Source: Yuukianura sp. NJ FZ-2021 (taxonomy: Eukaryota). From it: 64,000 nt of DNA. The position numbers and the translations under genes are program-made. The notes below the pieces were generated by a model. That model had not been told where the DNA came from, ran no database searches, and was given only the letters and a program-made list of their open reading frames with translations. Position 1 is the first letter of the stretch; every line of letters begins with the position of its first letter. Below are positions 12,666-29,537 of this stretch, one piece after another. The stretch is taken from NCBI GenBank assembly GCA_046563655.1, contig CM102283.1, forward strand, positions 1,488,001 through 1,552,000, written 5' to 3'.

Positions 12666-15600
12666 TTACAGTAACTTCAGCTGTAAATTTGCCTTTTGGA
12701 TGTGTGTAATGATACTCTTGGGAAGAAGGCCAGAGTTGATAAATGTTGATGTTCCAAAGTAAAGTTCAAGTTGAGGTACAAAGGTATTGTACAGCCACAT
12801 AAAATAGTTTTTGTCTTCATTTGCAACAATTCCATCAACGTCCCAATATTTAGGTGGCATTACGGGTGATTGTGGTGAAGGTCGGTCCAAAAGTGTCGTG
12901 TAGCGATCACGCCAATGTGGAAGATTCGTTTCACGTCCAGCAATATATTCTTCCCAGGTCGGTGGTTGCATTGTGACAAACTGAATACCTGTACTTCCAT
13001 ATGATTTTTGCACTTTTTGTACTTGAATTGTGTGGCCTCCGATAGACTGGATTGATTCATCATGATCATCTTTAAAAGATTTGATCAAATCATCCCATTT
13101 CAGTTTGTCCATCAGTGGCATTTTTGTGAACAGATCAGTATCGTTTATCTGTTCATAAGTTCTGCGGAGTGCCAAAACATCAATGAATGGATCTTTTAGG
13201 CCAAGTCCACCCATTTCAAGCGGCCAGTAAATCCATGCGTCGAGTAAATCCGCTTCTTTTAAGGCTGCAAATTTACTTGTCAAAGCTCGTATAGGAGAAG
13301 TTTCCAGTGATCCAAATACTCCAGCATAAATTGAACGAAGTGAAGAAACAATTTGATCCAAATGGGCACGTCCAAAAATAAGAGCAGCTTTACCAAAATT
13401 ACGTACAAAAAATGTCATGTACTTGTTAAATATTTGAATCCATTCGAGCGTACATTCCGCCTTGGCAAGGAGACTTTTCATTTCGGCAAGAAATTTTTCA
13501 GTCGAGTTTTGATCAATTCGAAGCGTTCCTGTTGAATCTAGTACCAAATATCCCCAATGAATATTTCGTTGTGGTAAAGGAGATGGGCCTGGTACACTTG
13601 CATGTTGTTTTGGTTTTTTCGTTTTTTTTCCATGTTTCTTTGGAATTTCTGGAACTTCTGACCAAATTTTGACTGATCCACTTCGTTTCACATTGACCTT
13701 CAGCCCAACCATACTTCCAAATTCATTAAGTGTTTCCCATGTTTTGGTAACATGCGATTCCTCTTTACTCCAAAACCAAAATTCATCTGAAATTCGGTAA
13801 ATTTTCAACCCTTCACACTTTCGATTCACGATGGATTCAAGTACAAATAGCAAAGTTTCTCCAAAAAGTTTTGAAAGCGCGTGTGATGTAGGAACTCCGC
13901 GTAAGACTTCTTGCCCTGTTTCAGAATTTGTAAATTTCAAACTATGATGTAGGAAATTTTTGAAGAAATCAAGCCACTGAGTTGACACACCAAATTTTTC
14001 CATTGCTATAAGAATAGCTTCGTGTGTTAGTGAGTGACCGAATGTTTCCAATTGTGTTTGAACAAGAATCAAAGGTTTTTCTGGATACAATACTTGGTGA
14101 AGTCGAATTTCTGTGCTCAAAACATGCAAAAATGACTGCTTTGGGTCAATGTCTGGTTTTGGGCGAGGTGGAGCAGGTCGATAAGCTTTTGCTTTAAATG
14201 ATTTTGTTCGAAACTGTAAATTTTCTGTTTCATCAAAAGAAGCTGACGCCATCATTTGATAAGTTTGTCCAAAATCGTTAGTTTCTTCAGATTCAATTTG
14301 AACGAATTCGTCTGTTATTGGATTTTCTTGAGATTGCAGAGAATCAGGAAGAGCTGTTAGGAACATACTTCTGTGGTAACGATTTCGTTCGGATTCGATA
14401 GACGATTGGTTGTACGGTACACGAGTCCACATTTTAGAAGAATAAATTCGGAGAAAACGAGATTTAAAAAATGCGGCCCAACTTACTCCGATATACTGCA
14501 GAAAAAGAGCAGATAAGATATCTTCGTTTAAATATGCTCTGTATTCCCCGGCTAGCCCACGCCGCACATCAGCTGGATGAAATGTTGTTGCGTTTGGCCA
14601 ATCCCAACGATCCAAATTTATCATCCGACTTGTCAGAAGTGATGCAACTTCGGTTACCGTTTCATCATTTTGAGATAGTTCCCGAAGTGAAGATTTTTTA
14701 GTCTCAGGAAATAAATCTTCAGATAGTAGGCCTGCGATCAAATCAAGGTTCGTAAAGAAAAAAAAAACTTTTTCTACCTCAGACTGTCCAATAACTGGGG
14801 TTTTTCAGTTTTTTGCCAAAATTTTCAATAATGAAACCGGCTGAACTTCCGTTTCTATCACAATTTTTAACTTTTTTTAAACTTTTTTTTTACTCCTATG
14901 TGATTTGAAGTGTTCAAAGTTTGGGGAAAAAAATTGTTAAAATTTTTTTTGAAGCACGATTTTTGAAAACCCTGAGTTACTGGACAACCCATTGTAGGAA
15001 ATACACTTTGATTGTCAAGGAACCTTGCCTGTGATGCAGAGCTGGACATCATAGCTTGAGATACTATGGGATTCGACCTTTAAAAATTCCGATGATTCTT
15101 TGCGTATAGTTTTAACCAAGTTATCCACGTCAGTACTTTCACCAGCCGCAAAAAATTCTTTATCCAAGAATTTTTTAAATTCCGTAGGATTAAATTCATT
15201 TGAAGTCGGAGCAGTAAAAATAAGCTTTGAAATTTTAGCAATTGCTTCTTTTTTGGCTTTTGTTGTATCTTCCAATTCTGCATTACTGCGATCCAATTCT
15301 TCTTTTTCTTTTCTTCTTTCATCAACTTCAAGCCATTCTCCAATCATCGACGCAAAGTAAAATGAATATTGACATTTGCGTAGAGCGCGTTGAATTTCGA
15401 GTCGTATTTTAGTTATCCAGACAGTGAGAACATCAGATGTGAGAGAAGGATCATCATTTGAAAATTCAAGGACATCTTTTAAATTTTCAATTAAATTGGC
15501 ATCAATCGTTTCCTTGACGGGTGATGTTTTGACCGCATGGTAAAGACTTTCCAAGGTTTCACGCGCATGTTCAGAAGATGTGCCATTTGATTGCTTAAGA

Positions 15601-15828: not shown

Positions 15829-18560
15829 ACCTTAGCAATGTTTATAACAGTGTACGTGTAGCCCGACGTTTCTGCTACAAAGATATGTGATAGAAAAAAT
15901 GTCTCACCTAGGAGCGACAGGCAGGAAAAATAAGGCAAAAATGACGAAATTTAGTCATTTTTAGAATGCGCGGACTTCCCTTTTAGATTCAGTTGTGTAG
16001 TCGCTGAAGTACACCAGCAACTGACATTAATTTGTAAGAATTTACCAACTTTAATGCGCTAGGCGTATACTTCAAACATTTAATCGATTATTGTTCAAAG
16101 CGGTATGCAAATGTCTTCCTTGCGATTCTACAGTGTCCTATTGTTTGCAGACCTTGATTTAGATGTAAATATTTTACTGTCTAAATCCTTGCCCTTGACG
16201 TGCTTGGTAATTACCACGCCAAAGGTTTCAGAAAACCTTGAATTTAAAAAATTACTTCCACCCTTGCTGGAATTTAAATTTAAAAAACACGCTAGTTGAA
16301 TTATCTTATTTTAAAAAAATTAGTTTAACAAAGTAATTAGTTTAAATATAAAAGAATTAATAAAATGTTCAAAACGTTTTATTGTATTCCAAGTAAAGCG
16401 TTAACACTAACAGCCTGATTCAATACAAACCGAAACGAAATTAATTTTGTTTGTTGCTGGAATACGAAAAATATTCCAACCCGAATAAACGTAAATGTAA
16501 AAATATTTTCACATGTTAAATGTAACTGCACCAATTAAGTGCAGCTACTATTATGAAGGGAATCGCTTACTTACAACTTCGGCCATACATAACCCCCGTC
16601 TGCGATTGGGCGTGGCGTATGATACAGTGCAAGGGACCTAAAAACGTTACGGACGGACGGACGGACAAAGTCGTGTCAATAGTCTTCTTCAGCATGTAGG
16701 AACTCGTAATTTACGAGTCGTAAACTTGCGTTTCCCTAAAGTAAAAGGCTAACGAGGCAATCCGTGGCGCCGCTTAGCGGCGGCGTTCGCACTTACAGTA
16801 TGGCAATGGCAACTCTTGTATCCGATGTACCCACGGAGTGTAACCATTGCTCTCTGTATTTTTCATGTCAACTGATGGTATATTCGTAGTGGGTGGTTAC
16901 AAACACATGATAATGCAGATTTTTTAATTTTGTAACCGTAGGATTGTATTGTAACGATTAAGTGTGGTCATGGAAAGTAGCTGGACTATCGGGTTACAAT
17001 AGATTGACGTTTAGTTCACTCCTTCACTCACGCAGAGTGTAACTGTACAAGTCAGCAAGGTTTTTTTTGTGAATGATGATCATAACAACAAATATTGACT
17101 AAAAAATTGCATCCTGTTTCGTTTTCCTTCATCTGGCGCTTCTACTAGTCAATCGTTCTTGACATTTTGACGTCTAATCGTCGTCCGTCCATCTGAACTA
17201 TCTGTAAGGTAAATACCTGTCTTGAACTGGATTAAAGGCGCCTGACTCGCTGACTCAGAAAGAAGGTGTTCCTCATTCGTCTATGAATCGAATGTGTCTG
17301 GAAGAGATTTTGACTTCCATTTTCCTTTATTTTCAGTTGCATTAGCGGAGGATATTGCATACCTGACGAACCATGAACCCACAACCGGCGAACGTCAAGG
17401 AACTGAAGGTTGGGAGATTCTACAAATGTCAAGTCGGACAAGTAACGAGAGCTGGACAGCTGTTCATGCTTCTACATACTTCGGCAACTGAGGACATTGT
17501 AAGTTTACACCTATGATATGTTTATCCAAGATAAACTTTATAAACGTAATGAACGTGTTCGGGTTATCCCGTGATGATGTTGTAATGAACTTTGCTCATC
17601 GTTTTCAACTCCCTAGGATATGGAAATTCGAACCTGGACTCGCTTCTACTTGAATGAACCGAATATGAGTCGGAAGTTCAACCTTGATTGTTCACTTCGG
17701 CGCATGGTTGTGGTTGTTATTCGAGCTTCCTCAACCGTCTACCGGGGGCTACTGGTTAGCTTAGACATTGAATCACGAAAGGCTGTTCTGGATTGTGTCG
17801 ATTTGGGTGAAATAAGACAAGTTTCAATTGATCACTTGTATGAAGCAACGCCCGAAGTTGTAGCAACCAAGTGGAAGGTAATCTACGTTATTATTTTTAA
17901 GTCTGTCAACTGATGTATAGCTTATTGGATATGTTAAGTCAAACTAGGCTGGCTACCTTAGAAAGATGTAAGATGTAACTAAACCATTTTCTATTTTCAG
18001 ACGGTTCCCTGTGTGCTGGATGGATTGGCAATGTTTTTAGGAACCCACTTCATGGAGAAAGGACTTCAGCACTGCAGCTTTATTCAAACTTCTAAACAAC
18101 TTCGAATGACAGTGAAAGGAAAACTGGACTCTCATTTCGTCATTGTTTTGGAGTGCTTCTCGAATCCAAAGTCAGTTAAGAACGTTAACACTATGATCAA
18201 CGAGTTCCTCCAAGGTCCTCTTTTGGAAGGACTTAAGAACAACGAGGTTAGTTTCCGTAGTCAATTCTCAGTTTTTAGCTGCTACTCATAGTACTAACTT
18301 AAGCTTCATAACTATTTAGTTGCCATCGTAAAGTGAACTTACTTGTGTGTTTGAATTTAGAACTCCAGCGTCATGGTTTCTGAAGTTCGCGGAGATGGAA
18401 TGATATATTACTCTCAAGTTGCTGGCGTTCAAGATGACACGGCCATTACACTTATGGAGTCGTTTCTCAGTCGAGTCAGTTATCGCGTAATGCGACGTCA
18501 ACTGCCAGCAGTAACCCCTGCAACAGTGGACCTAAATGAAGTGTACTTGGCTCCATATGA

Positions 18561-18809
18561 TGCGGCAGACCGGGGATTCCGCTGTTGCTGAACTGACCTC
18601 TGACCTCGTTGGAGTGATGCACTACTCAATAAATTGACCTCAACTACTTGCTGGACTTGGTGTCCAGTGGTAATCTGCTTAGGAGATGTTCTTTATTTAA
18701 CATCCAGAGAAAGACTGACAAGCATCTACCTAATCTACCTTACGTTAGATTGTGTGTTACACCTGTTGTCCAGTGGGGGTGGGTGTGGGTGGTGTACCGT
18801 CCCGCTACA
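18561..18809 (-). repeat. 3' LTR
   Basis: Identical by inspection to 27526-27774; TG...CA termini; AATAAA on the element strand. Confidence 0.97.
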
Positions 18810-20900
18810 CATTCCACCCGCAAGAAGGGGCCTCCCGGGGGGTGGGGTGGGGGTCTTCTCCTGGAGTGGGGGGAGGGGTCCTTGGATTGGTCCTCGGTCA
18901 TCCTTCCGCTGCCTGGGAGTGGTGACGTGTCTGCACTGCTGGCGCTTGTATGGATGATGATGTGGTGCTTGAGTGGTATTGTGGTGCTTGTTATCTGGTT
19001 TTTCTTTGTCGTTTTTGTGACGTTTTTGCCGATACTCTTTGACTTTGTTGGCAATCTTTTGTTTTTTCCAATTGATGAAGTATGGATCGGTCGCCATAAT
19101 TTTGATTTTTCTTTCTTCGCATTCTTTGCGAAATTGAGTGTCCTTTCTGTCGTGAAATGGACAATTTGACTTTTGGTGACCTTTCAACCAACATCCGAAG
19201 CAAACGTTGGTTGGTTGATTTGGGTTTTGAACGATTTCTTGTAAATCGTTTTGGATGGTGACGAGAATATTTTCTCGCTGAACCGGAATTTCTGGGATTT
19301 TTGTCGGAACTGTAATTTCTACAGTTCTTTCTGAATTTGATGTGATCTCTGGAACTGGTTCTGGACCGGTTGAAGTTTCAGCATCAATTTGAATGTTGTT
19401 TGTAGAATTTGGAGTAATTGAAATTGGTTCATCAACTTCCATTGGTTGAATTTGTTGAGTCAAATTTGTTTCTGTGGTGGATGGAGCATTTTGTTGAAGT
19501 AAATCATTCGAAAATGATTCGATGTCTCCGTCCGCTGTGATTTCAATTTCTGGATTTTCTGGACGCGTAGTTATTGTCACGTTTCCGTTGCAGAATTCAA
19601 CGAGTGAATCAGTTGATTCTTCCGAGGAATGTCTCGTTCGATTCGATTGGCGGTTAGGAACGACGACTACAACGGATTTGATTTTTGGTGACGGAGGTTC
19701 TGGTATTTCCCATGGATTTGAATTTGCGTCATTTTGTCTTTTTTGTTGTTCTGTGAAGATTTGTAGGGTCTTCTGTGACATCCGCCTGGCAAATACACTA
19801 CCATCCAAGGATTTTGGTGGTAATTCAATTAGATCTTCTTTGGTTTTGTAATTGTTTGGAGCTTCGACCATCGCTATGAGTTTCTCTTTTGGACAGACAC
19901 ACTGTCCAGGAAGATCATGAAATCTTGCGATGTCTTCTCTCAGTATGAAAATTTCTTTGAGGATGTGATTTTGAATTCCATCCAAGTTGGCGGTTTTTGC
20001 GATGTCATCGAGTTTTTGAAATTTTGGTTGACCAATATTTGGAGTATGTTTTGGGTAACGAAAAGTGACTGATGTCCATTCATTTTCATATAACTTGAAA
20101 CATTTTCCTCCATGATCCATCTTGATTTTGTTCCATGCTCGGATGAGCAAATGGGAGTCAGATCTTGCGTATTGGATCAAATCTGCATGGAGTGGTCTGT
20201 TTCGAAAGTCAGCGGCTCTTAGATCTTTGTTGGTTGGTTCAACATTTGGAATGAGAGTGGAAATTACTTTCCAGTAATTTTCTTGTCGTTGACGTTCTGG
20301 TTCGTCTGGAGGTTGTGGGAACTTGTAATAGGCTCGCTGTAGGTCAATGATTCCGACGGGGAATATTTTGTAAAACAAGTTCAGTTTTTTGACATCTTCT
20401 TTAGGGTCGAATCCGATTTTGATAATGTTAGGATTTTCAAAGATTGTTTTCAGTTCTTGTATTTTTTCGGAAAATTGAAAAGGGCAGATCACGTAATCTT
20501 TTTCTTGTGTGGAGATTTGAATAAGTGTCGGGTAAGTATGACCAAAGTAAGCTCGATCTGTTCCGTCAGAAAATTCAATGTCGAATCCAATTTCTTCTTG
20601 AATTTTGAGGTCATCCAGCATCTTTTTGAATTCGGAATATTTTCCAGGGATGATAACTGGAGTCGTAGCTCTGTCATCCTTGATGCTTTGACCAGTTTTG
20701 TATGTGGACATTGATTCTGTTATGTGAAATTTGGTCATTTCGGCAAGTTTCGGATTTTGCTGTATGTCGTAGCCGTCCTTGTTTCTTTGGATACAGTAAT
20801 TTCGGAATCCTTGGAATTTCGGATTGTAGAATGGTCTGGTTTTGGCTTTTCCATATTTCTTTTCCATTTCCGCTTTCAGTTTTAGCCATGGAGTTGCCAT
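18735..20900 (-). CDS. Retrotransposon ORF3: Rrp6/EXOSC10/RNase D-like DEDDy 3'-5' exonuclease + HRDC + disordered linker + CCHC zinc knuckle (721 aa)
   Basis: ExoI IGFDIEF, LIQISTQEKDY, IFENPNIIKI, ExoII FDPKEDV, DFRNRPL, ExoIII YARSDSHLL. HRDC-like ILREDIARFHDLPGQCVCP. Knuckle CFGCWLKGHQKSNC. The stop lies inside the 3' LTR. Confidence 0.88.
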   Translation of the reverse strand: MATPWLKLKAEMEKKYGKAKTRPFYNPKFQGFRNYCIQRNKDGYDIQQNPKLAEMTKFHITESMSTYKTGQSIKDDRATTPVIIPGKYSEFKKMLDDLKIQEEIGFDIEFSDGTDRAYFGHTYPTLIQISTQEKDYVICPFQFSEKIQELKTIFENPNIIKIGFDPKEDVKKLNLFYKIFPVGIIDLQRAYYKFPQPPDEPERQRQENYWKVISTLIPNVEPTNKDLRAADFRNRPLHADLIQYARSDSHLLIRAWNKIKMDHGGKCFKLYENEWTSVTFRYPKHTPNIGQPKFQKLDDIAKTANLDGIQNHILKEIFILREDIARFHDLPGQCVCPKEKLIAMVEAPNNYKTKEDLIELPPKSLDGSVFARRMSQKTLQIFTEQQKRQNDANSNPWEIPEPPSPKIKSVVVVVPNRQSNRTRHSSEESTDSLVEFCNGNVTITTRPENPEIEITADGDIESFSNDLLQQNAPSTTETNLTQQIQPMEVDEPISITPNSTNNIQIDAETSTGPEPVPEITSNSERTVEITVPTKIPEIPVQRENILVTIQNDLQEIVQNPNQPTNVCFGCWLKGHQKSNCPFHDRKDTQFRKECEERKIKIMATDPYFINWKKQKIANKVKEYRQKRHKNDKEKPDNKHHNTTQAPHHHPYKRQQCRHVTTPRQRKDDRGPIQGPLPPLQEKTPTPPPGRPLLAGGMCSGTVHHPHPPPLDNRCNTQSNVR

Positions 20901-21005
20901 CTGAAATTGAGGAATTTAAAATTAATTAATCCTGGATTGTGATTTCTCACATTGATATGGTATTTGGAATTTAGAAATTTTGTGTTTTTGTTTCCGGCTT
21001 CGCGC

Positions 21006-24000
21006 TTAGCGGTGATAACCTGCGAGCGTGCGATAATTGACTCTTTGTTTTTGTCTAAGTCTTGGTAAGTTTTCAGATTCATCGTTCGACGGAACTGAAT
21101 CATTTTTCTTTTGATTAAATTTTTGTTTTATTTTTCGGACAAAATATTGTTTAATTTGGGAAACATGCCGTCTCCCTACATGAGAATTGTCATCAATTCT
21201 TACTATTTCGTAAGTAATTGGAGTGGCTTTACTGCCAATTTTGTATGGACCTTCCCATTTATGGGATAATTTTTGTGCAATCCCTTCATCCTTACTGGAT
21301 AGGATATGCGTTTTAATGAGGACGAAGTCTCCTTCATTAAATGTCACATCACGGTGACTTTTGTTATAATACATTCGGTTTTTCTCATGGGCTATTTCCA
21401 TGTTTGCTCTCACGTACTCAATTAATTCTTTAAGTTCATTTGGAACTTTTTGAGCGTGGTTTAAGTCAACCTGAGTTGGACTTTGTTGTAAATTTCTGTC
21501 AAATGGCAATGGAATTTGCCTTCCCAGATTCAATAATGCTGGTGTGACTTTTGTTGTTTCATTTACGACTGTGCGTAATGCTAGAGCGAATTTTTGAATG
21601 TTTTGGTCCCATTTGTGATGACTTTCTTCGATGTATGCTTGAATCATTGTTTTGATGCTTCTATTGGTTCTCTCAGATTGATTGGCTTGAGGATGGTACT
21701 CAGCAATCATTTTATGTTTGATTTTCCATTTTTCACATAAATCTGCGATTATGTTGGAAGTAAATTGAGGTCCATGGTCTGAGATTATTGTGTGTGGAGA
21801 TCCGAATCTGCAGAAGATTTGATCTTCCAGTATTTCTTCAGTTTTCTTTGCAGTTGCCGCTGTCATGGGAAAAAGTTCAACCCATTTTGACAGTTCGTCT
21901 AGAACGACGAGTAAATATTTGCTTTGTTTTCCGCCCGCACTTGTTGGAAATGGACCTTGATAATCAACATGTATTGTTCCGAATACTTCGGATGGCGGTT
22001 TTGCAAATCCTAATTCTCCATAGGGTTTCCTATTTGAGATTTTTACTTTTTGGCATTTGTCACAAGTTTTGACATATTCTGCAATTTCTCTGTTCATATT
22101 GTTCCAATAGCATCTTTGTTTGATTCTTTCTTGAGTTTTTGTTCTCCCGAAGTGTCCGGCTTCTGGGGAGTCATGGAATATTTCCATTATTTTTGTTTTC
22201 ATAGTTTCTGGAATTACTGGTACCATGGTTTTTTCTTGATTTTTGTTAGGATCCTTGTCATTTTTGGGTAATTTTGAGTTGACTGGCTGTGTCTGAGGTT
22301 CATGACTCCTCTCTTCAGTTGTCTTCTCTTGATTTTGATTTGGTTTTTGTGCCGTAATAACGGTCTTTGGATGGCTGCAATCTGGTTTGAAACAAATTGT
22401 TTCATGACAAATTTTTGATTTGACTTGAGTCAATTTTGGTGAAGTTGCAGTCCTTCCTTTGAATGGTTTGATTTTTCGGAACAAAACGTTTCTGTCGAAG
22501 ACATAATTACTCGTAATGCTTGGCCGAACATTCTTCGTAACTTTGAGTTCGTTTATGATTTTTTGAGTTTGTGGATCTTTTCGTTGTTCCGTTGAAATAT
22601 CTTGTAATGATGGAGTACAGTAGACAAGTAGAAATGTTGGTAATAAAATGTTGTCTCTGTCTTGGAGCATGTCTGGATCGTTTTGTGTTTCTGGAAGACT
22701 GGCTCTTGAGAGTGCGTCTGCAACTACGTTTTCGGATCCTTTTCTGAATCTGATGGTTGCGTTCCAGGATGTGATCTCGATTGCCCATTTTGTAAGTTTG
22801 GCTTTTTTGTTTTTCATGGAATTTAAGTAACTGACTGCCTTGTTGTCAGTTTCGATTATGAAGGGGTGTCCTTCAATAAATTCTCTGAATTTGTCGTATG
22901 CAAAGATTATGGCATAAAGCTCTTTCTCATGAATATGAGCGCTTCGTTCTGACTTTTTGAGTGATTTGCTTGCAAACATGATTGGTCTTTCTTTGCCGTC
23001 AATTTCTTGGACAAGAACTGCTCCGAGTCCATTTTCTGAGGCATCACATTGCATGATTATTGGTTTTGAGTAATCGATTGTTTTTAGAATGACATCTTCT
23101 GCCATTGCTCTTTTGATTTCTTGAAATGCATTTTCTTGTTCTTGACCCCATCGCCATTTTACGTTCTTTCTGAGAAGATGATGTAATGGTTCGGCTTTTG
23201 AACTAAAGTTTTTGATGAAGGTGGCGTACCATGCGCACATTCCATGGAATCGTAAAATGTCTTGTTTGCATTGTGGAGTTGGAAATTCCATTATGGCCTT
23301 GACTTTTGAAGGTTGTTTGGTAATTCCATCTTGGCCAACAACATGACCAATGTAATGGACTTCAGTTTGTGCCCAAACTGATTTGATTCTATTAATTGTT
23401 AATTTCGCTTCTTTGAGTCTTTCAAGTGCTTTTTCAAGGTCAATGTAATGTTGTTCCAAGGTTGGTGAGTAAATCAGGATGTCATCAACGAAAATTTTGA
23501 TGAAAACGTCAATGTAATCTTGGAAAACGATTCTCATCAATGAAGTAAATGTTTTTGGTGAATTTTTCAATCCCATCGGCATCACTAGGAATTCGTAATG
23601 GCCGTCTTGTGTGATAAATGCGGTTTTCTCAATGCTGTTCTCGTGCATTGGAATTTGCCAAAATCCTGAGTTCATGTCGAGGACAGTGTACCAGTAGTTT
23701 GGCGGGATTGTTCGCAGGATGGAGTTGCAATTGTCCATTGGAGCTGCGTTTTTCTTCATACTTGCGTTAAGTTTGATGTAATTGATGCAGAGCCTGTACT
23801 TGTCTGAGTTTTTCTTTTTCTCTAACACCACTGGTGCTGAGTAAGGGGATCTGGACTGTCTCACCATTCCTTTTTGAATTAATTGCTCGATTTCTTGGTT
23901 GAGAACGTTTCTTAAGTTTGGAGCATATTTGTAAGGTCGGAGTTGAATTGGTCCGCCTTCTGTTTCTATTTCATGTCTGGTAAGATCTGTTCTGCCATTC

Positions 24001-24566
24001 AGATTGTCGTCTCTGGCGACTTCTGGGAATTTTTGAATTATTTCTAGAATTCTAGCTTCTTTTTTGTCTAATGGAGTTTTTCCATTTGGTTGTTCGTAAG
24101 TAAGGCTGAACAGAATAGCATTCTGTCGATTTTTGAATGAGAATATTGTTGGAAGTTTGTCTTCTGGTTTTGACTTAAACCAAAACTTTTCTCCTGAGAC
24201 ATCGAGAATGATTTCATGTTTCTTCATGACGTCTTTGCCAATGATAAGCGGAAATGGAAGGGTTTCCATTACGTATGCATTGGTGATTATGAGTTTGTCC
24301 AGGATCTTGAATTGGAGTCGAACTGATCCAATTGGTTGAATTTTTTGATTGTTTGCAATAATTAAAGTGAGATTATTGCTAGAGTTGAAATTCTTTTGAA
24401 TTTTCTTGGCTACTCTTTTGTGGATTAGAGTATAATCGCTTCCAGTGTCGAAAATGGCTTCGATTTCTGGTGTTTTTGATAAGATCAATGATGTTGCACC
24501 TTGGGATTTTTGAAATTTGAGGATTGGGAGAAGATAAGATGGTGCTGGGAGCTTATCTTCCCTCAA
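21006..24566 (-). CDS. pol: Pol polyprotein (aspartic protease, RT, RNase H, integrase)
   Basis: Protease FDTGS; RT VLDMNSGFWQI, MPMGLKNSP, FVDD; RNase H CDAS, EKELYA, TDNKA; integrase HDSPEAGH..CDKC, HVDY, SDHG, SERTN. No in-frame stops. Confidence 0.97.
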   Translation of the reverse strand: MREDKLPAPSYLLPILKFQKSQGATSLILSKTPEIEAIFDTGSDYTLIHKRVAKKIQKNFNSSNNLTLIIANNQKIQPIGSVRLQFKILDKLIITNAYVMETLPFPLIIGKDVMKKHEIILDVSGEKFWFKSKPEDKLPTIFSFKNRQNAILFSLTYEQPNGKTPLDKKEARILEIIQKFPEVARDDNLNGRTDLTRHEIETEGGPIQLRPYKYAPNLRNVLNQEIEQLIQKGMVRQSRSPYSAPVVLEKKKNSDKYRLCINYIKLNASMKKNAAPMDNCNSILRTIPPNYWYTVLDMNSGFWQIPMHENSIEKTAFITQDGHYEFLVMPMGLKNSPKTFTSLMRIVFQDYIDVFIKIFVDDILIYSPTLEQHYIDLEKALERLKEAKLTINRIKSVWAQTEVHYIGHVVGQDGITKQPSKVKAIMEFPTPQCKQDILRFHGMCAWYATFIKNFSSKAEPLHHLLRKNVKWRWGQEQENAFQEIKRAMAEDVILKTIDYSKPIIMQCDASENGLGAVLVQEIDGKERPIMFASKSLKKSERSAHIHEKELYAIIFAYDKFREFIEGHPFIIETDNKAVSYLNSMKNKKAKLTKWAIEITSWNATIRFRKGSENVVADALSRASLPETQNDPDMLQDRDNILLPTFLLVYCTPSLQDISTEQRKDPQTQKIINELKVTKNVRPSITSNYVFDRNVLFRKIKPFKGRTATSPKLTQVKSKICHETICFKPDCSHPKTVITAQKPNQNQEKTTEERSHEPQTQPVNSKLPKNDKDPNKNQEKTMVPVIPETMKTKIMEIFHDSPEAGHFGRTKTQERIKQRCYWNNMNREIAEYVKTCDKCQKVKISNRKPYGELGFAKPPSEVFGTIHVDYQGPFPTSAGGKQSKYLLVVLDELSKWVELFPMTAATAKKTEEILEDQIFCRFGSPHTIISDHGPQFTSNIIADLCEKWKIKHKMIAEYHPQANQSERTNRSIKTMIQAYIEESHHKWDQNIQKFALALRTVVNETTKVTPALLNLGRQIPLPFDRNLQQSPTQVDLNHAQKVPNELKELIEYVRANMEIAHEKNRMYYNKSHRDVTFNEGDFVLIKTHILSSKDEGIAQKLSHKWEGPYKIGSKATPITYEIVRIDDNSHVGRRHVSQIKQYFVRKIKQKFNQKKNDSVPSNDESENLPRLRQKQRVNYRTLAGYHR

Positions 24567-26203
24567 CAGTTTAACTGTTGGTTTGAGCTTTGAGTTTGTT
24601 GATTTTGACTCATGTTGGAGTCGTAAGTGTCGTACTCTTCATAGTACTCTTCCTGAGTAACTAGAGCTGTGCCTTGTTTGTTGGGACATTGATTTGTCGA
24701 GTGTCCGCGGCCTCTGCATTTTCTGCATTGAATGTTGTCAGAATTGCTGGCTGTGGCTTGATTATTTGAATTGTTTTGATTTTCTGAGGTTCCACGATAA
24801 TTGCTGTGGTAATTTGGGTCGAAATTTTTTCCTCTGTAATTGGAACGACGTCCACGGTAATTTCCTCTTTCGCCTCGTGTTGATCCTCGGTTGCCCCGAT
24901 TGGATCGACCTCTGTCATTTCCTCTTTGGGAATTTTCATTTTGAGGATTTTCCGTTTCTTTTTGTTCTTGGGTTTCAGCATTTTCATTGCGAGTGTTGTA
25001 GTAAGTTCGACCTCTTCCTCTGTATCGTCCCTTGTAGCTACCTCTTCCACGGGAATTGGTTTTTCGGGAATTGGAATTTGAATTTGAATCGTCTACTTGG
25101 TCTTTGTTTGAATTATTTTGACCTTTTTGGAATTTTCGTTCTTCGACGTTGCTCACTGCTGGAGCGACAATTGGTGGTAGACGATCTTTGCTCTTGGTTG
25201 CTTTGTCTTGTGCTGTCAAGTTGTCATGGACTGTGCGACAGTCATCAAATAAGGCTTGTGGAGAGTCGTACTCCTTGGTTCCCAGCATGGTTCTGATTCT
25301 TGGATACAGTGAGTTTTGAACTCTTAAGAGTGACTGAGCAGTGGTTTCATTTGGGAAACACAATTTTGAGAGTCTGAGCATTTCGTAAATATGAACTTCT
25401 GTGGGTTCATGAAGCAATTGAATTTTGTTTGTAAGGTATTTGACTCTGTTTCTGTGTTCGACTGGATTGTCGAATCTTCTGAGAAATTCAATTTTGAATC
25501 CGTTCCAAGTGTCGGTTTCATTATGGATGTGTTCCCACCATGCATGTGTTTCTTGGGGTAAAATGGATTTTACCATGTACAGCCATTGTTGGGGTGGAAA
25601 GCCTTGACTTGTAAAATATCGTTCTGCGTCCTTGAGAAACGATTCTGCTGTTGATTTTTTTGGATTAAATTTCGGAGCTGGAATTTGTGAATTGACTGAA
25701 GTCAATCTCACTGTTTGAAGTGCCTCCGTCAGCGTTTCAAGTGTGACGAGTTGACTGGGTCCAGCAATAGACGTATTAGAGCGTCTGTCAATTTGATTGG
25801 TTGCTGGGGCTCCTCGAACTAATGACGGTTGTCTAGATTCGTCTTGTGCTTTTGTTGCTCGGGCTCTGGCTTCTTTTGCTTGGTCCGCAGCATTAATTAC
25901 AACATGGAACATTTGTGTTAATTGGGCCATTTGTTCGTCTGAAAAGACTTGACCTTGGATTGGGTTGCTGCTTGGTCCTGGATTTGGATTTGGACGTGCC
26001 GGATTTAGGTTGGGAGCTGGCAAACCGACATCAAATAAACGTTGAAGGTCTTCTTCGAATTCTGTTTCTTGTTGATCAATTTGCTGTTGATCTAATTGTT
26101 GTTGATTTTGGTCTGTCGCCATTCTTCTTTGTCTTCCGCTTCGAGTGGTATCGGCAATTTCTGGATCGAGCGGTAGCAGATTTCTAAGCTCACGTTTACT
26201 CAT
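24563..26203 (-). CDS. gag: Gag (capsid-like region, RG-rich linker, CCHC knuckle)
   Basis: 546-aa ORF upstream of pol with CRKCRGRGHSTNQC. Pol is in the -1 frame at G-TTA-AAC just before the gag stop. Confidence 0.9.
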   Translation of the reverse strand: MSKRELRNLLPLDPEIADTTRSGRQRRMATDQNQQQLDQQQIDQQETEFEEDLQRLFDVGLPAPNLNPARPNPNPGPSSNPIQGQVFSDEQMAQLTQMFHVVINAADQAKEARARATKAQDESRQPSLVRGAPATNQIDRRSNTSIAGPSQLVTLETLTEALQTVRLTSVNSQIPAPKFNPKKSTAESFLKDAERYFTSQGFPPQQWLYMVKSILPQETHAWWEHIHNETDTWNGFKIEFLRRFDNPVEHRNRVKYLTNKIQLLHEPTEVHIYEMLRLSKLCFPNETTAQSLLRVQNSLYPRIRTMLGTKEYDSPQALFDDCRTVHDNLTAQDKATKSKDRLPPIVAPAVSNVEERKFQKGQNNSNKDQVDDSNSNSNSRKTNSRGRGSYKGRYRGRGRTYYNTRNENAETQEQKETENPQNENSQRGNDRGRSNRGNRGSTRGERGNYRGRRSNYRGKNFDPNYHSNYRGTSENQNNSNNQATASNSDNIQCRKCRGRGHSTNQCPNKQGTALVTQEEYYEEYDTYDSNMSQNQQTQSSNQQLNC

Positions 26204-26222
26204 TCAGCTTAGTTCTGCTGTA

Positions 26223-26808
26223 GGTTACTCTACTGAGTTACCTTAGGTTACCCTACTGGGTTACCTTTCGTTGGTTACCCTACTGGGTTACCATTCGTTG
26301 GTTACTCTACTGAGTTACCATGGAGGTTACCCTACTGGGTTACCTTAGTTTAGGTTACTCTACTAAGTTACCTTGAGGTTACCCTACTGGGTTACCTTTG
26401 AGGTTACCCTACTGGGTTACCTTAGTTAGGTTACTCTACTGAGTTACCTTGGAGGTTACACTACTGTGTTACCTTTGAGGTTACACTACTGTGTTACCTT
26501 GAGGTTACCCTACTGGGTTACCTATTTGTTAGGTTACTCTACTGAGTTACCTTGAGGTTACCCTACTGGGTTACCTTGGTTAGGTTACTCTACTGAGTTA
26601 CCTTGTAGGTTACACTACTGTGTTACCTTTGAGGTTACACTACTGCGTTACCTTGAGGTTACACTACTGTGTTACCTTTGAGGTTACACTACTGCGTTAC
26701 CTTGAGGTTACCCTACTGGGTTACCTTTTGTTAGGTTACTCTACTGAGTTACCTTAGAGGTTACACTACTGTGTTACCTTGATTCTTAGGTTGCCCTACT
26801 GGGCTACC
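26223..26808 (-). repeat. Tandem array of 23 covarying 20-nt hairpins in the element 5' leader
   Basis: Unit on + strand is GGTTAC(CC/TC/AC)TACT(GG/GA/GT)GTTACC with about 3-10 nt spacers. A 24th unit sits at 27178-27197. Confidence 0.95.
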
Positions 26809-27500
26809 TTTTAACGTAATACTTTGATTTTACGTTGTTTTTTAATAATTTTTTGTAAAAGGACTTTAATTTTTTTCTTTAATAGAGCGTAGGATTACGT
26901 TTTTGCGTTATTCCGTTTTGAATTTTATTTTTAATTTGTGTAATTTGTTTAATTTTTTCCAAATTTACTTTTTAAATTTGTTTGTAAAAGGAATTGTGCA
27001 ATTGAAAGTGAACGAAGAGACGCAGGATGTCTACTTCTACGTCCGCACTGGCTGCGTGTGTTTATGTTTACTTGTGCTTTGCTTTCGCTTTTTTTTTTTT
27101 GCACTGCAATTCCAGTGGAATTGCAAAAAAAGTTAATCTGAACTGTCCGTTATGTTTTTGTTGTCTCGTCTTCTGTCGGTTACTCTACTGAGTTACCGTT
27201 ATGAAAGGAGATAATGAGATATGCAAATCGACTGTCTTTAACGGGCCGTTGACTGTGAAGGACTCTATTTTTTTCTCTTCTTTTCCGGACTTTTTCACAA
27301 AATGGCGGCTGCCACGCTAACGGTGATTTTGCCGCTTCTGACCTTTGAGGTCGCGATTTCAATTCGATTTCCGGTTCATGTCGGTCATTGGTTATGCTGC
27401 CTTTGAATGTTTTTTGAATTTGGTATGTGTACCTTTGTTTTTTGCCTTTTGAAGTGATGATTTGTGGCTGCTTCTGACTGCGATTCCTTTGGAAACGATG

Positions 27501-27515
27501 TTCGGCTGGCTACCA
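27501..27515 (-). promoter_or_regulatory. Candidate primer-binding site
   Basis: TGGTAGCCAGCCGAA begins 10 nt inside the 5' LTR boundary. The cognate tRNA is not identified. Confidence 0.4.
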
Positions 27516-27525
27516 AGTCGTCACG

Positions 27526-27774
27526 TGCGGCAGACCGGGGATTCCGCTGTTGCTGAACTGACCTCTGACCTCGTTGGAGTGATGCACTACTCAATAAATT
27601 GACCTCAACTACTTGCTGGACTTGGTGTCCAGTGGTAATCTGCTTAGGAGATGTTCTTTATTTAACATCCAGAGAAAGACTGACAAGCATCTACCTAATC
27701 TACCTTACGTTAGATTGTGTGTTACACCTGTTGTCCAGTGGGGGTGGGTGTGGGTGGTGTACCGTCCCGCTACA
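27526..27774 (-). repeat. 5' LTR
   Basis: Identical to 18561-18809. Confidence 0.97.
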
Positions 27775-29537
27775 ATGAGGACGGTGTACTTTACCGTGCA
27801 AAAATTCTTGAGAAGGACGAAAAACGCGTCGAGGTAGAATACATTGACTACGGGAACCGGGAAGTTCTTCCATACACGGCTGTGTTTCAGGCTTCACTTG
27901 TGGACGTTACAATGGCATCATTCCCACCATTGGTACGTGGAATCCCTTATTATTCAATTCTCATAGTCATAACTTTTTTCTTTAAAAAAGTGAACTTGTT
28001 TTGTTTCAGGCTAAAAAAGCGTATCTCCGCTGGATCCAGGAGTTCAATGACCTGGAGAAGGCCCAGGACATTCTTACTTCCAAAACATGGAAAGTTGAGG
28101 TACGCAAATCGTTCAGAAACGGTTGTCCAATGGTTTGTCTCTTTGATCCGGCTGACTCAAGCGTCGTCAACAAGAAGTTGATTCTGGACGGCTTTGCCAA
28201 AAAGTCAGTTACTTCAAACTGAACCACCAATTTTTGAAAACATTGAACCATGTAGCTGCACAAGTTTTTGTTTTTTTTTTTTCTCAGTTGTTTCTTTGTT
28301 TATCTTTTTCGTTGTTGATAGATTACTCACTTGTGCACTACAGGCTATTTTTCAACTTCTTACCCAATTTTAACAAATTGGTTGTAATGTTTACATAAAA
28401 CATATAATAAAATATGTATTTAAAACTACAATAATTGTGTGAAGTAATTACTTAAGTTTGATTTAGGAACTTCGTCCGATGAAGAAGTTTAGTACTTTCA
28501 CCGTTTCACCTCCAACATTGAATTATTTCTCGCCATTTTTTAGTGGAGTAGGGAATGTCATAGGAGAAAGTGGCGGGAAAGTTAATTTAATTTTGGCTAC
28601 TCACTTTCCCAACCTCGAACTCCTTTCTGTCCTAAACTTGTCTCTGTCACTCCCAAGTCCCTGCTGAACTAATCTAAAAGTTAAGAGTTCATCTTCCTCA
28701 TTACTTCAACTTAACTTTAGGTAGCATAACCTACGAAATTTTGAACAAACCTAACCCTTGAAGTTTAAAATTTCAACCTTACTGGCCTCAAATATAAGCT
28801 GAAGTTGCACAATTTACGTTAGGTTAACGTAACCGAAAGATTTCGTAGATTGAGTAGATTTCATAATGAATTTCTCATACCTAGTAGAAAAGGAAAGTTA
28901 GGCAATAATGTTGAAAATAGAAAATTGAATTTCTTTTGTTTCTACTTTCTCCTTCTGGGCCGCACAACCAATAAAACTTTGCCCAATAATCTCTTCATCC
29001 CTTGCCCTTGCACAACTTTTGCACAACTTTGAACTTATACTGCCACTGCTCCAAATTAAATCTCCGCAGGCACTTCTGCCATGAAAAGTCTAACTTTTTT
29101 ATTTCCTTCCTCCGAAGTATTTCAATTAAAATTTCAAATTTAAATTTGTTTTTGTTTTTTAACACTCCACTAACCCCTGCCCTCCTCACTGACTCTTGAG
29201 CATTGACATTTTTCTTAAATAGAGCAGAAAGAAAGGAAAAACTTAAAAAAGTTGTTCCTTTTCGAAACACAATAGCTGCCTATGATACCGGCCTGTTCAA
29301 CTTTTTAATTAAATTTTCCTCCGAAGTTTTTTTTTTCGAGAACAACGAAACTAACCTGATGTCTAGCAAAGAAGTTTAGTCCGGAAGACTGTTTCAAAAT
29401 TCCGATTTTTTTTAGGAATAATAATAATTCAAAACGTGTGGATGGTATTTACAATTAACTTTCTAACAACTTTACATAAATTGTTATTATTATTTTTTAC
29501 AATTATTATTGATCTCTGATATAGTGAACTATAGGGC

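What the first reader, a model, noticed from the sequence alone, without database searches (positions are those of the whole stretch)
18735..20900. Gypsy retrotransposon carries an Rrp6-like exonuclease-HRDC-zinc-knuckle ORF3 instead of env
Seen: an intact 721-aa intronless ORF between pol and the 3' LTR. All DEDDy residues are present (D-I-E, ExoII D, Y-x3-D), along with Rrp6/RNase D-type blocks (LIQIST, DFRNRPL, YARSD), an HRDC-like region and a gag-type CCHC knuckle. It has no signal peptide or TM helix. Known: Rrp6/EXOSC10 is the nuclear exosome 3'-5' RNase, and DEDDy ORF3s have been reported in bdelloid rotifer retroelements. I do not know of this EXO+HRDC+CCHC architecture in an arthropod gypsy element. 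Inference: a captured host RNA-surveillance enzyme used to trim or destroy small RNAs, compete with the exosome, process primer or element RNA, or proofread for RT.
Basis: partly seen in the sequence, partly recalled or inferred. Interest (0 to 1): 0.92.

Follow-up and report, generated by a model that had tools for sequence, protein, structure and literature searches.

The report
Retrotransposon carrying an Rrp6-derived RNA exonuclease
A young, intact gypsy-type jumping gene carries, in the place where relatives carry an envelope gene, a conserved gene for the catalytic core of the cell's nuclear RNA-trimming enzyme Rrp6 joined to an RNA-binding zinc knuckle, and the same gene sits behind the polymerase gene of related elements in springtails.

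Summary
An intact 721-codon ORF lies at 18735-20900 on the minus strand. It is the third ORF of a 9,214-bp Ty3/gypsy element (18561-27774) with identical 249-bp LTRs and a 4-bp target duplication.

Residues 1-400 are an Rrp6/EXOSC10 catalytic core: pre-EXO segment, DEDDy exonuclease with all five catalytic residues, and HRDC. A disordered linker follows, then a C-x2-C-x4-H-x4-C knuckle with basic helices. The exosome-docking PMC2NT domain is absent, and there is no signal peptide or membrane helix.

This is not a one-off capture. At least 52 of the 150 best database relatives form one clade, set apart from cellular Rrp6. Of its members, 46 of 52 keep the catalytic pentad. Six lie directly behind a gypsy integrase. 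The five that carry a species name are all springtails.

Variant copies in two differently labelled organisms differ mostly at third codon positions.

Function is inferred: a free 3'-5' exoribonuclease, tethered to RNA, that serves the element. Its target is unknown. The only printed precedent I found is the DEDDy ORF3 of bdelloid rotifer retroelements. I rate this a new variant of a known kind.

The parts
27526..27774 (-). 5' LTR (249 bp, TG...CA)
   Evidence: 100% identical to the 3' LTR over 249 nt. Ends read directly.
27775..27778 (-). Target-site duplication TCAT (upstream copy)
   Evidence: Read directly. It matches 18557-18560.
26221..26782 (-). Tandem array in the 5' leader: about 22 copies of a ~25-nt unit, between the LTR and gag
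   Evidence: Tandem Repeats Finder. Also seen in the repeat finder family D1 and the self-BLAST.
24563..26203 (-). gag (546 aa) with its own CCHC knuckle at residues 493-506
   Evidence: Sub-threshold Pfam zf-CCHC_3 and Arc capsid hits. 29% identical over 430 columns to the gag of L003, which passes Retrotrans_gag.
21006..24566 (-). pol (1186 aa): protease, RT, RNase H, integrase, Tf2-type SH3
   Evidence: Pfam domains in that order. 43% identical over its full length to the pol of L003.
20901..21005 (-). pol-ORF3 spacer. ORF3 is in frame with pol but separated from it by three stop codons. The spacer ends in ttcctcaatttcag directly before the ATG, a candidate splice acceptor (inferred).
   Evidence: Sequence read. 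Frame arithmetic is mine. Upstream regions of ORF3 in L001-L003 are shown. No RNA data.
20643..20900 (-). ORF3 residues 1-86: pre-EXO segment, homologous to the part of EXOSC10 just before its EXO domain (RPQ motif region)
   Evidence: Family profile position 24 onward aligns to EXOSC10 from residue 219. pLDDT 84-98.
20115..20642 (-). ORF3 residues 87-262: DEDDy 3'-5' exonuclease domain with D107, E109, D169, Y244 and D248 intact
   Evidence: Pfam PF01612 E 1.6e-20. Alignment to Rrp6. Pentad counts.
19719..20012 (-). ORF3 residues 297-394: HRDC-like helical domain
   Evidence: Pfam HRDC E 4.1e-4, below cut-off. 18 of 28 relatives match HRDC. Profile hits to the EXOSC10, WRN and RecQ HRDC structures. 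Helices at pLDDT 83-95. Rrp6 fold matches cover 350-376 columns.
19218..19691 (-). ORF3 residues 404-561: disordered, poorly conserved polar/acidic linker
   Evidence: pLDDT below 50. Gappy and variable in length in the family alignment.
19161..19202 (-). ORF3 residues 567-580: C-x2-C-x4-H-x4-C zinc knuckle
   Evidence: Pattern match. The four ligand columns are kept in 20 of 28 aligned relatives. pLDDT 72-90. The A2 profile hits a retroviral Gag at this part, E 7.4e-4.
19005..19139 (-). ORF3 residues 588-632: two basic helices after the knuckle, conserved in the family
   Evidence: Helices H588-604 and H606-632 at pLDDT 88-94. Aligned basic tails.
18735..18992 (-). ORF3 residues 637-721 plus stop: Pro/His-rich tail special to this element, running through the polypurine region into the 3' LTR
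   Evidence: pLDDT below 50. Relatives end earlier. Overlap with the LTR.
18561..18809 (-). 3' LTR (249 bp), holding the ORF3 stop codon and an AATAAA
18557..18560 (-). Target-site duplication TCAT (downstream copy)
   Evidence: Read directly.

Best explanation
ORF3 is an accessory gene of a Ty3/gypsy lineage, inherited together with pol. It is descended from the catalytic core of the nuclear exosome nuclease Rrp6/EXOSC10.

Shown:
- The protein keeps the pre-EXO segment, a DEDDy exonuclease domain with an intact active site, and the HRDC domain.
- It has lost the PMC2NT domain, which in cellular Rrp6 binds Rrp47 (role recalled from the literature).
- After a disordered linker, it carries a retroviral-type CCHC knuckle and basic helices in place of the Rrp6 C-terminal region.

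Inferred:
- It is made from its own message, probably spliced, because three in-frame stops separate it from pol.
- It works as a free-standing 3'-to-5' exoribonuclease, brought to single-stranded RNA by its own knuckle and tail rather than by the exosome.
- It trims or destroys RNA 3' ends to the element's advantage.

Among possible targets I rank them as follows, conditional on the above:
- First, RNAs of host surveillance or silencing, such as small-RNA precursors, unprotected small RNAs or antisense transcripts: about 0.35-0.4.
- Second, 3'-end processing of the element's own RNA or of its primer: about 0.3.
For: Element:
- Identical 249-bp LTRs, TG..CA ends and a TCAT duplication.
- gag, then pol in PR-RT-RH-IN order.

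Identity of ORF3:
- Pfam exonuclease E 1.6e-20.
- 13 of 13 PDB sequence hits are Rrp6/EXOSC10.
- A profile of 22 element-type relatives gives EXOSC10 2.9e-74, yeast Rrp6 6.2e-70 and T. brucei Rrp6 2.2e-66. RNase D scores 2.4e-27 and the Mut-7 homologue 2.4e-23.
- The first 14 ranks shown in the fold search are Rrp6/EXOSC10 chains (10 different entries), at E about 1e-17 to 7e-12.
- The model is confident for residues 1-400 and 565-635.

Family:
- In a 136-row tree, 52 rows hold all 20 knuckle-bearing rows and none of the 46 PMC2NT-bearing rows. They sit on one side of a branch with support 99.
- In a 65-row mixture-model tree rooted on RNase D-like rows, the 35 element-type rows form one clade (99). 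It is sister to the 27 cellular Rrp6 rows (96).

Constraint:
- The catalytic pentad is intact in 22 of 25 and 24 of 27 rows of the two element-type subclades.
- Of the 15 ORF3 differences shown among variant contigs, 10 are at third positions (binomial p 0.0085). Of 13 changed codons, 10 are synonymous.

Linkage to pol:
- L003 has gag-pol-ORF3 in the same order. L002 and L001 have the integrase end directly upstream on the same strand.
- Three springtail gene models fuse the integrase C-terminus to the ORF3 homologue.
- Window pol against L003 pol is 43% identical over its full length. ORF3 against the ORF3s of L001-L003 is 25-28%.

Not env: no membrane helix or signal peptide.
Against: Nuclease activity, the substrate and the way ORF3 is expressed are all untested.

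In this copy HRDC is below Pfam's cut-off, and the knuckle is not recognised by Pfam at all.

Three of 25 rows in the query's subclade have lost catalytic residues, so activity is not indispensable everywhere.

The evidence from variants is thin. Only 40 of 459 differences were printed, chosen by the tool for support, and only 15 of those lie in ORF3.

One low-depth contig of the second organism label covers 19165-19627 with 16 extra letters, which is not a multiple of three. Some copies may therefore carry a broken ORF3. At depth 4.45 it may also be an error.

Pol linkage was checked for only 6 relatives plus the query, all in the query's subclade. L001-L003 come from a single metagenome. The context of the second subclade (27 rows) is unknown.

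The sister position to all cellular Rrp6 may be an effect of long branches, so the donor and the date of capture are open.

ORF3 diverges faster than pol and has a long unconserved linker and tail. That fits weak constraint as well as an arms race.
Confidence: 0.75

Rival explanations
1. Replication helper. The nuclease acts on the element's own nucleic acids. It might trim the 3' end of the tRNA-type primer, of the genomic RNA, or of RNA remnants on cDNA ends. The knuckle and basic tail would bring it to the genomic RNA or into the particle, as nucleocapsid does.
For: The knuckle has the same spacing as the one in the element's own gag. The A2 profile touches a retroviral Gag at that part. 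Cellular Rrp6 and RNase D mature the 3' ends of structured RNAs (established knowledge). The rotifer authors propose 3'-end processing of element RNAs (PMC5408684, passages read; PMC6431247, passages read).
Against: ORF3 is not part of the gag-pol polyprotein. Most gypsy elements replicate without such an enzyme. Similarity between the two knuckles is not significant (E 0.10). I could not define the primer-binding site: there is no tRNA gene in the window, and the candidate TGG lies 10 nt from the LTR.
Confidence: 0.3
2. DNA-directed use. ORF3 would be a 3'-5' DNA exonuclease that proofreads for, or tidies up after, reverse transcriptase, as ExoN does for nidovirus polymerases or as the WRN-type domain acts on DNA.
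For: The DEDDy fold also serves DNA enzymes. Weaker matches to WRN exonuclease and to PolA proofreading domains do exist. HRDC also occurs in the RecQ and WRN helicases.
Against: The family profile prefers Rrp6/EXOSC10 by about 220 bits over WRN exonuclease. ORF3 is not fused to RT. At 9.2 kb the element is not unusually long.
Confidence: 0.08
3. A binder, not a nuclease. The domain would serve only as an RNA-binding adaptor, as in EXD1, Egalitarian or Maelstrom.
For: Three of 25 rows of the query's subclade have lost catalytic residues yet remain open reading frames with knuckles. The rotifer paper lists inactive DEDD derivatives in the piRNA pathway (PMC5408684).
Against: The query and 46 of 52 element-type rows keep all five catalytic residues. 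The known inactive adaptors have lost them (established knowledge).
Confidence: 0.07
4. A passenger. ORF3 would be a neutral piece of host gene carried along by one element family, with no function.
For: The linker and tail are unconserved. ORF3 diverges faster than pol. The rotifer study found no departure from neutrality within genomes (PMC5408684).
Against: Open frames with the same layout persist across elements whose pol is only 41-45% identical. The active site is kept in 46 of 52 rows. The differences shown are biased to third positions. Named members come from two springtail orders.
Confidence: 0.04

Closest known systems
Rrp6 / EXOSC10, catalytic core (EXO + HRDC) of the nuclear RNA exosome nuclease
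   Same: The pre-EXO segment, the DEDDy exonuclease with the same catalytic residues, and the HRDC domain. It is by far the best sequence and fold match.
   Different: No PMC2NT domain. The C-terminal region is replaced by a disordered linker, a CCHC knuckle and basic helices. It is encoded by a retrotransposon. It falls outside the clade of PMC2NT-bearing cellular Rrp6.
DEDDy-type ORF3 of the bdelloid rotifer LTR elements Juno and Vesta, and of Athena/Terminon retroelements (Rodriguez et al. 2017, PMC5408684; passages read)
   Same: An exonuclease ORF of the DEDDy class downstream of pol in the place of env, without membrane or coiled-coil features. The paper notes a Cys-His-Cys motif in the Vesta2 and Vesta5 ORFs.
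   Different: A different host phylum. The paper calls its ORFs RNase D-like, reports DEDD changed to DEED, and never uses the word HRDC (0 occurrences). Here the pentad is canonical, and HRDC and a CCHC knuckle are part of the conserved layout. I had no rotifer sequences, so I could not test whether the two groups share one origin. The paper's supplements were not seen.
Trypanosoma brucei RNase D (PDB 7c42-7c4c, deposited as 'CCHC-type domain-containing protein')
   Same: It combines a DEDDy exonuclease domain with a CCHC zinc finger on an RNA 3'-trimming enzyme (titles; Atlas cluster with zf-CCHC in 61% of members).
   Different: A much weaker match, and only over the exonuclease domain (E 9.8e-16 to 3.5e-13 against 2.9e-74). 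It is a cellular gene of a protist, so the shared layout is most likely convergent.
Nibbler / Mut-7, EXD1 and Egalitarian (DEDDy proteins of small-RNA and RNA-transport pathways)
   Same: The same fold. These are precedents for this fold acting on, or binding, small RNAs and localised RNAs.
   Different: Distant matches: E 2.4e-23 for the Mut-7 homologue, 3.4e-15 for Egalitarian and 2e-4 for EXD1. They lack HRDC plus a knuckle in this order. They are host genes.
env-type ORF3 of insect errantiviruses (gypsy and relatives)
   Same: The same position between pol and the 3' LTR. Expression from a spliced message is known for gypsy env (recalled) and is only inferred here.
   Different: No signal peptide, membrane anchor or any env-like feature. 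This ORF3 is an enzyme of a different fold.

Membership tests
Rrp6/EXOSC10 (cellular exosome-associated nuclease) | DEDDy exonuclease domain with all five catalytic residues | tested here: met
   PF01612 E 1.6e-20. D107, E109, D169, Y244 and D248 align to the Rrp6 motifs.
Rrp6/EXOSC10 (cellular exosome-associated nuclease) | HRDC domain directly after the exonuclease domain | tested here: met
   This copy is below cut-off on its own (20.7 against 23.8 bits). However, 18 of 28 aligned relatives match, the profile hits the EXOSC10 HRDC structure 2cpr, and Rrp6 fold matches span 350-376 columns.
Rrp6/EXOSC10 (cellular exosome-associated nuclease) | N-terminal PMC2NT domain (Rrp47 binding) | tested here: not met
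   No PF08066 hit in the query or in any of the 28 aligned relatives. An iterated search seeded with a Pfam-verified PMC2NT labelled 49 of 151 proteins, none of them on the element-type side of the tree.
Rrp6/EXOSC10 (cellular exosome-associated nuclease) | C-terminal region that docks on the exosome core | tested here: inconclusive
   After HRDC, the alignment to EXOSC10 is gap-rich and of low confidence. The query has a disordered linker there. I had no model of that region to test with.
Rrp6/EXOSC10 (cellular exosome-associated nuclease) | Placement inside the clade of cellular Rrp6 orthologues | tested here: not met
   The element-type rows form their own clade (99), sister to the cellular clade (96). 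The FastTree on 136 rows gives the same split.
Ty3/gypsy LTR retrotransposon (Metaviridae) | Direct LTRs with TG..CA ends and a short target-site duplication | tested here: met
   249-bp LTRs, 100% identical. TCAT on both sides.
Ty3/gypsy LTR retrotransposon (Metaviridae) | pol domain order protease-RT-RNase H-integrase | tested here: met
   Pfam hits in that order, plus a Tf2-type SH3.
Ty3/gypsy LTR retrotransposon (Metaviridae) | Primer-binding site and polypurine tract next to the LTRs | not tested
   A purine-rich stretch precedes the 3' LTR, and a TGG lies 10 nt after the 5' LTR. No tRNA was available to compare.
Rotifer-type DEDDy ORF3 (Juno, Vesta, Athena) | DEDDy exonuclease ORF downstream of pol in a retroelement | tested here: met
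   here. The feature is as described in PMC5408684.
Rotifer-type DEDDy ORF3 (Juno, Vesta, Athena) | Sequence kinship with the rotifer ORFs (closer to them than to cellular enzymes) | not testable with these tools
   Only 5 of the 30 relatives looked up carry a species name, and all five are springtails.
Rotifer-type DEDDy ORF3 (Juno, Vesta, Athena) | DEDD changed to DEED, as that paper reports | tested here: not met
   The query has D-E-D-D. Only 2 of the 52 element-type rows have E at the third place.
Errantivirus env ORF3 | Signal peptide and membrane anchor | tested here: not met
   The maximum 19-residue hydropathy is 0.71, and the N-terminus is hydrophilic.

The most novel reading that the evidence does not exclude
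A lineage of arthropod gypsy elements carries a stripped-down, self-targeting copy of the nuclear RNA-surveillance nuclease and uses it as a weapon against the host's RNA-based control. It would destroy or shorten small-RNA precursors, unmethylated small RNAs or antisense transcripts that would otherwise silence the element. That would make it a retrotransposon-encoded suppressor of RNA silencing built from the host's own Rrp6. The rotifer DEDDy ORFs may be part of the same old, shared pool of retroelement nucleases.
Probability: 0.27. Interest if true: 0.88.

Novelty: new variant of a known kind. Interest (0 to 1): 0.68.

Why it matters
Accessory genes of LTR retrotransposons other than env are few, and almost none has a known function. 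Here the accessory gene is a recognisable enzyme with a well-studied cellular parent, so its activity can be tested directly.

The family is large and appears to be under constraint. It is tied to pol in at least two springtail orders and in several environmental contigs. It therefore offers natural replicates for asking what a retroelement gains from owning an RNA 3'-5' exonuclease.

Two outcomes would each matter. If the target is host silencing RNA, this would be a new class of counter-defence in transposons. If the target is the element's own RNA or primer, it would reveal a replication step that other elements must solve in another way.

It also extends the one reported case, in rotifers, to arthropods. 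That suggests exonuclease ORF3s are a recurrent solution rather than a rotifer oddity.

Tried and rejected
- The window's own genome is not held, so I could make no census of copies and no dN/dS. There is only one copy in the window.
- The word-index protein searches were of little use. P0001 alone gave nothing. The A2 profile gave 7 proteins at my cut-off of 1e-10, none of them a family member.
The narrower alignment worked. Of its 26 loci, I examined only L001-L003, L015 and L021. The rest match only residues 84-390 at 21-30%, or short pieces, and I did not study them.
- The scan of viral contigs found no relative.
- No RNA holder was listed among sequencing runs. All three runs laid are DNA contigs. 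Expression, splicing and transcript ends therefore stay untested.
- I looked for a polypyrimidine tract plus AG upstream of ORF3. One lies within 0-25 nt of the ATG in the window and in L001-L003. Such strings are common in AT-rich DNA, so I do not count this as evidence.
- A gag origin for the ORF3 knuckle: the two knuckles align, but at E 0.10. Not shown.
- Pfam on the knuckle region alone gave no hit even at E 10.
- The viral structure library gave only generic giant-virus and phage exonucleases, at E 2.7e-8 or weaker.
- The ESM Atlas gave scores of 0.85 or lower, which are leads only.
- Earlier findings of this scan: none.
- Contig lengths suggest that P0015 lies with pol P0162 (both 8283) and P0046 with pol P0166 (both 6662). 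I could not verify this, so I do not count it.
- Literature: eight searches found no report of an exonuclease ORF3 in LTR elements outside bdelloid rotifers. Repbase, Dfam, GyDB, subscription journals and paper supplements were not searchable.
- A host gene that merely lies between two LTRs: rejected. The LTRs are identical and flank gag-pol-ORF3, and the same order recurs in L003.
Full report
**1. The observation**

The ORF is real and sits at the stated coordinates, but on the minus strand: 18735..20900, ATG start, 721 aa. The plus-strand reading is full of stops.

It is the third ORF of an LTR element on the minus strand:
- Two 249-bp direct repeats at 18561-18809 and 27526-27774 are 100% identical and 8,965 bp apart.
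- They begin with TG and end with CA.
- They are flanked by the same four bases, TCAT.

Between the repeats lie four things:
- A 1.3-kb leader with a tandem array.
- gag at 24563-26203.
- pol at 21006-24566, with Pfam hits for protease, RT, RNase H, integrase zinc-binding and core domains, and a Tf2-type SH3, in that order.
- ORF3.

ORF3 is in frame with pol, but three stop codons separate them (my arithmetic). The 3' LTR starts at 18809, so the last 25 codons and the stop lie inside it. The identical LTRs mark a young insertion. The window holds only this copy.

**2. What the protein is**

Sequence evidence:
- Pfam finds only the DEDDy exonuclease domain, residues 87-260, E 1.6e-20.
- Against all PDB sequences, the 13 matches at E<=0.01 are all Rrp6 or EXOSC10. 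The best alignment (yeast Rrp6, E 7.4e-17) runs from residue 88 to 346, past the exonuclease domain. The D-x-E, ExoII D and Y-x3-D stand in the same columns as Rrp6's.

Structure evidence:
- An AlphaFold model built on 28 relatives is confident for residues 1-400 and 565-635. It is disordered for 404-561 and 637-721.
- In the Foldseek search of the PDB, the first 14 ranks shown are Rrp6/EXOSC10 chains. Alignments at E about 1e-17 to 5e-16 cover 350-376 columns, and one at 7e-12 covers 248. E. coli RNase D follows at 5.9e-11.

HRDC and the knuckle:
- The HRDC part of this copy alone scores just below Pfam's cut-off (E 4.1e-4, 20.7 against 23.8 bits).
- The knuckle CFGCWLKGHQKSNC fits the retroviral spacing exactly but draws no Pfam hit.

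There is no hydrophobic segment or signal peptide.

**3. A family, not a one-off**

A full HMMER pass over 1.84 billion representative proteins gave 978 hits at E<=1e-3. The best 150 were listed.

Many of the best hits share the query's short N-terminus. Nineteen of the 150 also have a C-terminal knuckle of the same spacing.

I aligned the query with 27 of these hits (A2). The results:
- 28 of 28 match the exonuclease model, 18 of 28 match HRDC (best 2.3e-11), and none matches PMC2NT.
- One of these rows, P0029, later fell on the cellular side of the tree. I therefore repeated the profile test with 22 rows of the query's own subclade (A4).
- That profile gives human EXOSC10 2.9e-74, yeast Rrp6 6.2e-70 and T. 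brucei Rrp6 2.2e-66. The other families score far lower: E. coli RNase D 2.4e-27, the Mut-7 homologue 2.4e-23 and WRN exonuclease 4.5e-7.
- The alignment begins at the conserved RPQ motif of the N-terminal segment, opposite EXOSC10 residue 219. Even the first 86 residues are therefore Rrp6-derived.
- The profiles also hit the isolated EXOSC10 HRDC structure 2cpr. The A2 profile touches a retroviral Gag at the knuckle, E 7.4e-4.

**4. Trees**

I labelled cellular Rrp6 by an iterated search for the PMC2NT domain, seeded with a Pfam-verified example. This labelled 49 of 151 proteins.

*FastTree.* It used 136 of the 151 proteins. The 15 with incomplete domains were dropped.
- One branch (support 99) separates two sides. 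On one are 52 rows, including all 20 knuckle-bearing rows and no PMC2NT row. On the other are 84 rows, including all 46 PMC2NT rows.
- The query lies in a 25-row subclade (97) together with every relative whose context I could check.

*IQ-TREE.* It used 65 rows and a site-mixture model:
- 22 of the 25 subclade rows. I left out two very long rows and one near-duplicate.
- 13 of the 27 rows of the second subclade.
- 27 of the 46 PMC2NT rows.
- 3 RNase D-like proteins, as the root.

This tree gives the cellular Rrp6 rows as one clade (96). The 35 element-type rows form one clade (99, stem 0.82), sister to it.

Long branches may pull the element clade to the base, so the donor lineage and the date of capture stay open. 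One origin for the element-type genes is not contradicted.

**5. Link to retroelements and to hosts**

A metagenome scan returned the contigs of three relatives:
- L003 carries gag (504 aa), pol (1245 aa, all pol domains) and the ORF3 homologue P0010, in that order on one strand.
- L002 has the integrase core and SH3 ending 12 nt before the ORF that holds P0006.
- L001 has the last ~230 residues of pol upstream of P0009.

The window's pol is 43% identical to L003's over its whole length, down to the last residues. ORF3 is 25-28% identical to the three homologues. ORF3 has therefore travelled with pol while changing faster. All three contigs come from one metagenome.

Independently, three annotated proteins (P0008, P0089, P0148) join the integrase C-terminus to an ORF3 homologue with a knuckle.

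Of the 30 relatives I looked up, five carry a species name. Four are from Orchesella dallaii and one is from Allacma fusca. These are springtails of two orders.

Its nearest named pol relatives are only 31-33% identical, from a pseudoscorpion. A probable glutamate-receptor exon in the window fits an animal.

**6. Constraint**

The catalytic pentad D-E-D-Y-D is intact in:
- 22 of 25 rows of the query's subclade;
- 24 of 27 rows of the second subclade (two more have D-E-E-Y-D);
- 83 of 84 rows on the cellular side.

Three DNA runs hold the element: two of one sample, and one of another study under a second organism label. Their contigs are 85-100% alike and cover all of it, which shows many variant copies.

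Of the 459 differences, the tool printed the 40 best supported:
- 15 fall in ORF3 codons 58-153. Ten of these are at third positions (p 0.0085), and 10 of the 13 changed codons are synonymous.
- 25 fall in pol, and 24 of these are at third positions.

This is a small sample selected by the tool. One low-depth contig of the second label has 16 extra letters in the linker region. That would break the frame if real.

**7. How it most likely works**

*Shown.* The protein is an Rrp6 catalytic core with an intact active site. It lacks PMC2NT and carries a new C-terminal module of knuckle and basic helices. It is encoded separately from gag-pol.

*From established knowledge.* Rrp6 is a distributive 3'-5' exoribonuclease for single-stranded 3' ends. 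PMC2NT and the C-terminal region tie it to Rrp47/Mtr4 and to the exosome core. CCHC knuckles of nucleocapsid type bind single-stranded nucleic acid.

*Inferred.* ORF3 protein is a free nuclease guided by its own RNA-binding tail. It is made from a subgenomic, probably spliced, message, since a pyrimidine tract and CAG abut the ATG. It acts on RNA 3' ends for the element's benefit.

I rank host surveillance or silencing RNAs as the most likely target, for three reasons:
- The gene evolves faster than pol.
- It has a variable disordered linker, as many host-directed accessory proteins do.
- According to the rotifer paper, mechanistically different retroelements (LTR elements and Penelope-like Athena) carry similar nucleases. 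That suggests a benefit not tied to one replication scheme (PMC5408684).

Processing of the element's RNA or primer is nearly as likely. DNA proofreading, a non-catalytic binder and a neutral passenger are less likely, for the reasons given under the rivals.

**8. Comparison with what is known, and novelty**

The closest printed case is the DEDDy ORF3 of the bdelloid rotifer Juno and Vesta elements and of Athena/Terminons (PMC5408684, passages read). Two reviews by the same group mention no other hosts (PMC6431247 and PMC5718144, passages read). A 2019 opinion paper lists a DnaQ-like exonuclease among known accessory domains, citing the same work (PMC6338049, passage read).

Eight full-text searches found nothing on such an ORF in arthropods, or on an HRDC-plus-knuckle layout in retroelements. 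I could not consult Repbase, Dfam, GyDB or paper supplements, so a catalogued consensus may exist.

I therefore rate it a new variant of a known kind. The kind is the same: an exonuclease ORF3 in an LTR element. What is new:
- the host group;
- clear descent from the Rrp6 core;
- a conserved HRDC and CCHC module;
- a large family that seems to be under constraint.

**9. Verdict**

- The 'captured host enzyme' wording needs the qualification that the capture is old and partial.
- The functional proposals remain open.
- Interest is 0.68.

Noticed in passing
window 26221-26782 (minus-strand element leader): About 22 tandem copies of a ~25-nt unit lie between the 5' LTR and gag. This stretch has the highest contig depth in the laid runs, and several indel variants were reported there. 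It recalls the repeated binding-site arrays in the leaders of some insect gypsy-type elements (recalled). Its function is unknown.
   Followed up: partly
window 12666-14741 (minus strand): A 691-aa ORF with a weak reverse-transcriptase hit (RVT_1 E 4.2e-4, below cut-off) lies just beside the element. It is probably a second, different retroelement.
   Followed up: no
window 60678-61292 (plus strand): A 204-aa ORF with a ligand-gated ion channel hit (Lig_chan E 5.9e-7, just under cut-off). It is probably an exon of an ionotropic glutamate-type receptor gene, which fits an animal host.
   Followed up: no
L001 1-5035: The ORF3 homologue (704 aa, P0009) is intact. Upstream, however, only the last ~230 residues of pol are recognisable and the first 1.6 kb shows no pol similarity. 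This is either a truncated element with a whole ORF3 or a chimeric contig.
   Followed up: partly
runs X1-X3 laid on window 18561-27774: Contigs 85-100% alike cover all 30 bins of the element in both organism labels. The family is therefore multi-copy and is present under a second organism label from another study. One contig of X2 joins 23851 to 24483, an internally deleted copy lacking 631 bp around the gag-pol boundary.
   Followed up: partly
proteins P0208 and P0216 (relatives of the window's pol): Two pol relatives carry GDSL lipase domains (PF13472, PF00657) in the same protein. One is filed under a bacterial bin name. GDSL esterase is the other enzymatic ORF3 type that the rotifer paper describes, so it too may occur outside rotifers.
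   Followed up: no
27-row second subclade of the element-type clade (for example P0017, P0018, P0020, P0033, P0042): These are Rrp6-core proteins with a short N-terminus and a basic tail, mostly without a CCHC knuckle (3 of 27 have one). Two have DEED in place of DEDD. Their genomic context is unknown.
   Followed up: partly
window 18648-19169 (plus strand): A 173-aa ORF lies antisense to the 3' part of ORF3 and reaches into the LTR. I take it to be a chance frame and did not examine it.
   Followed up: no
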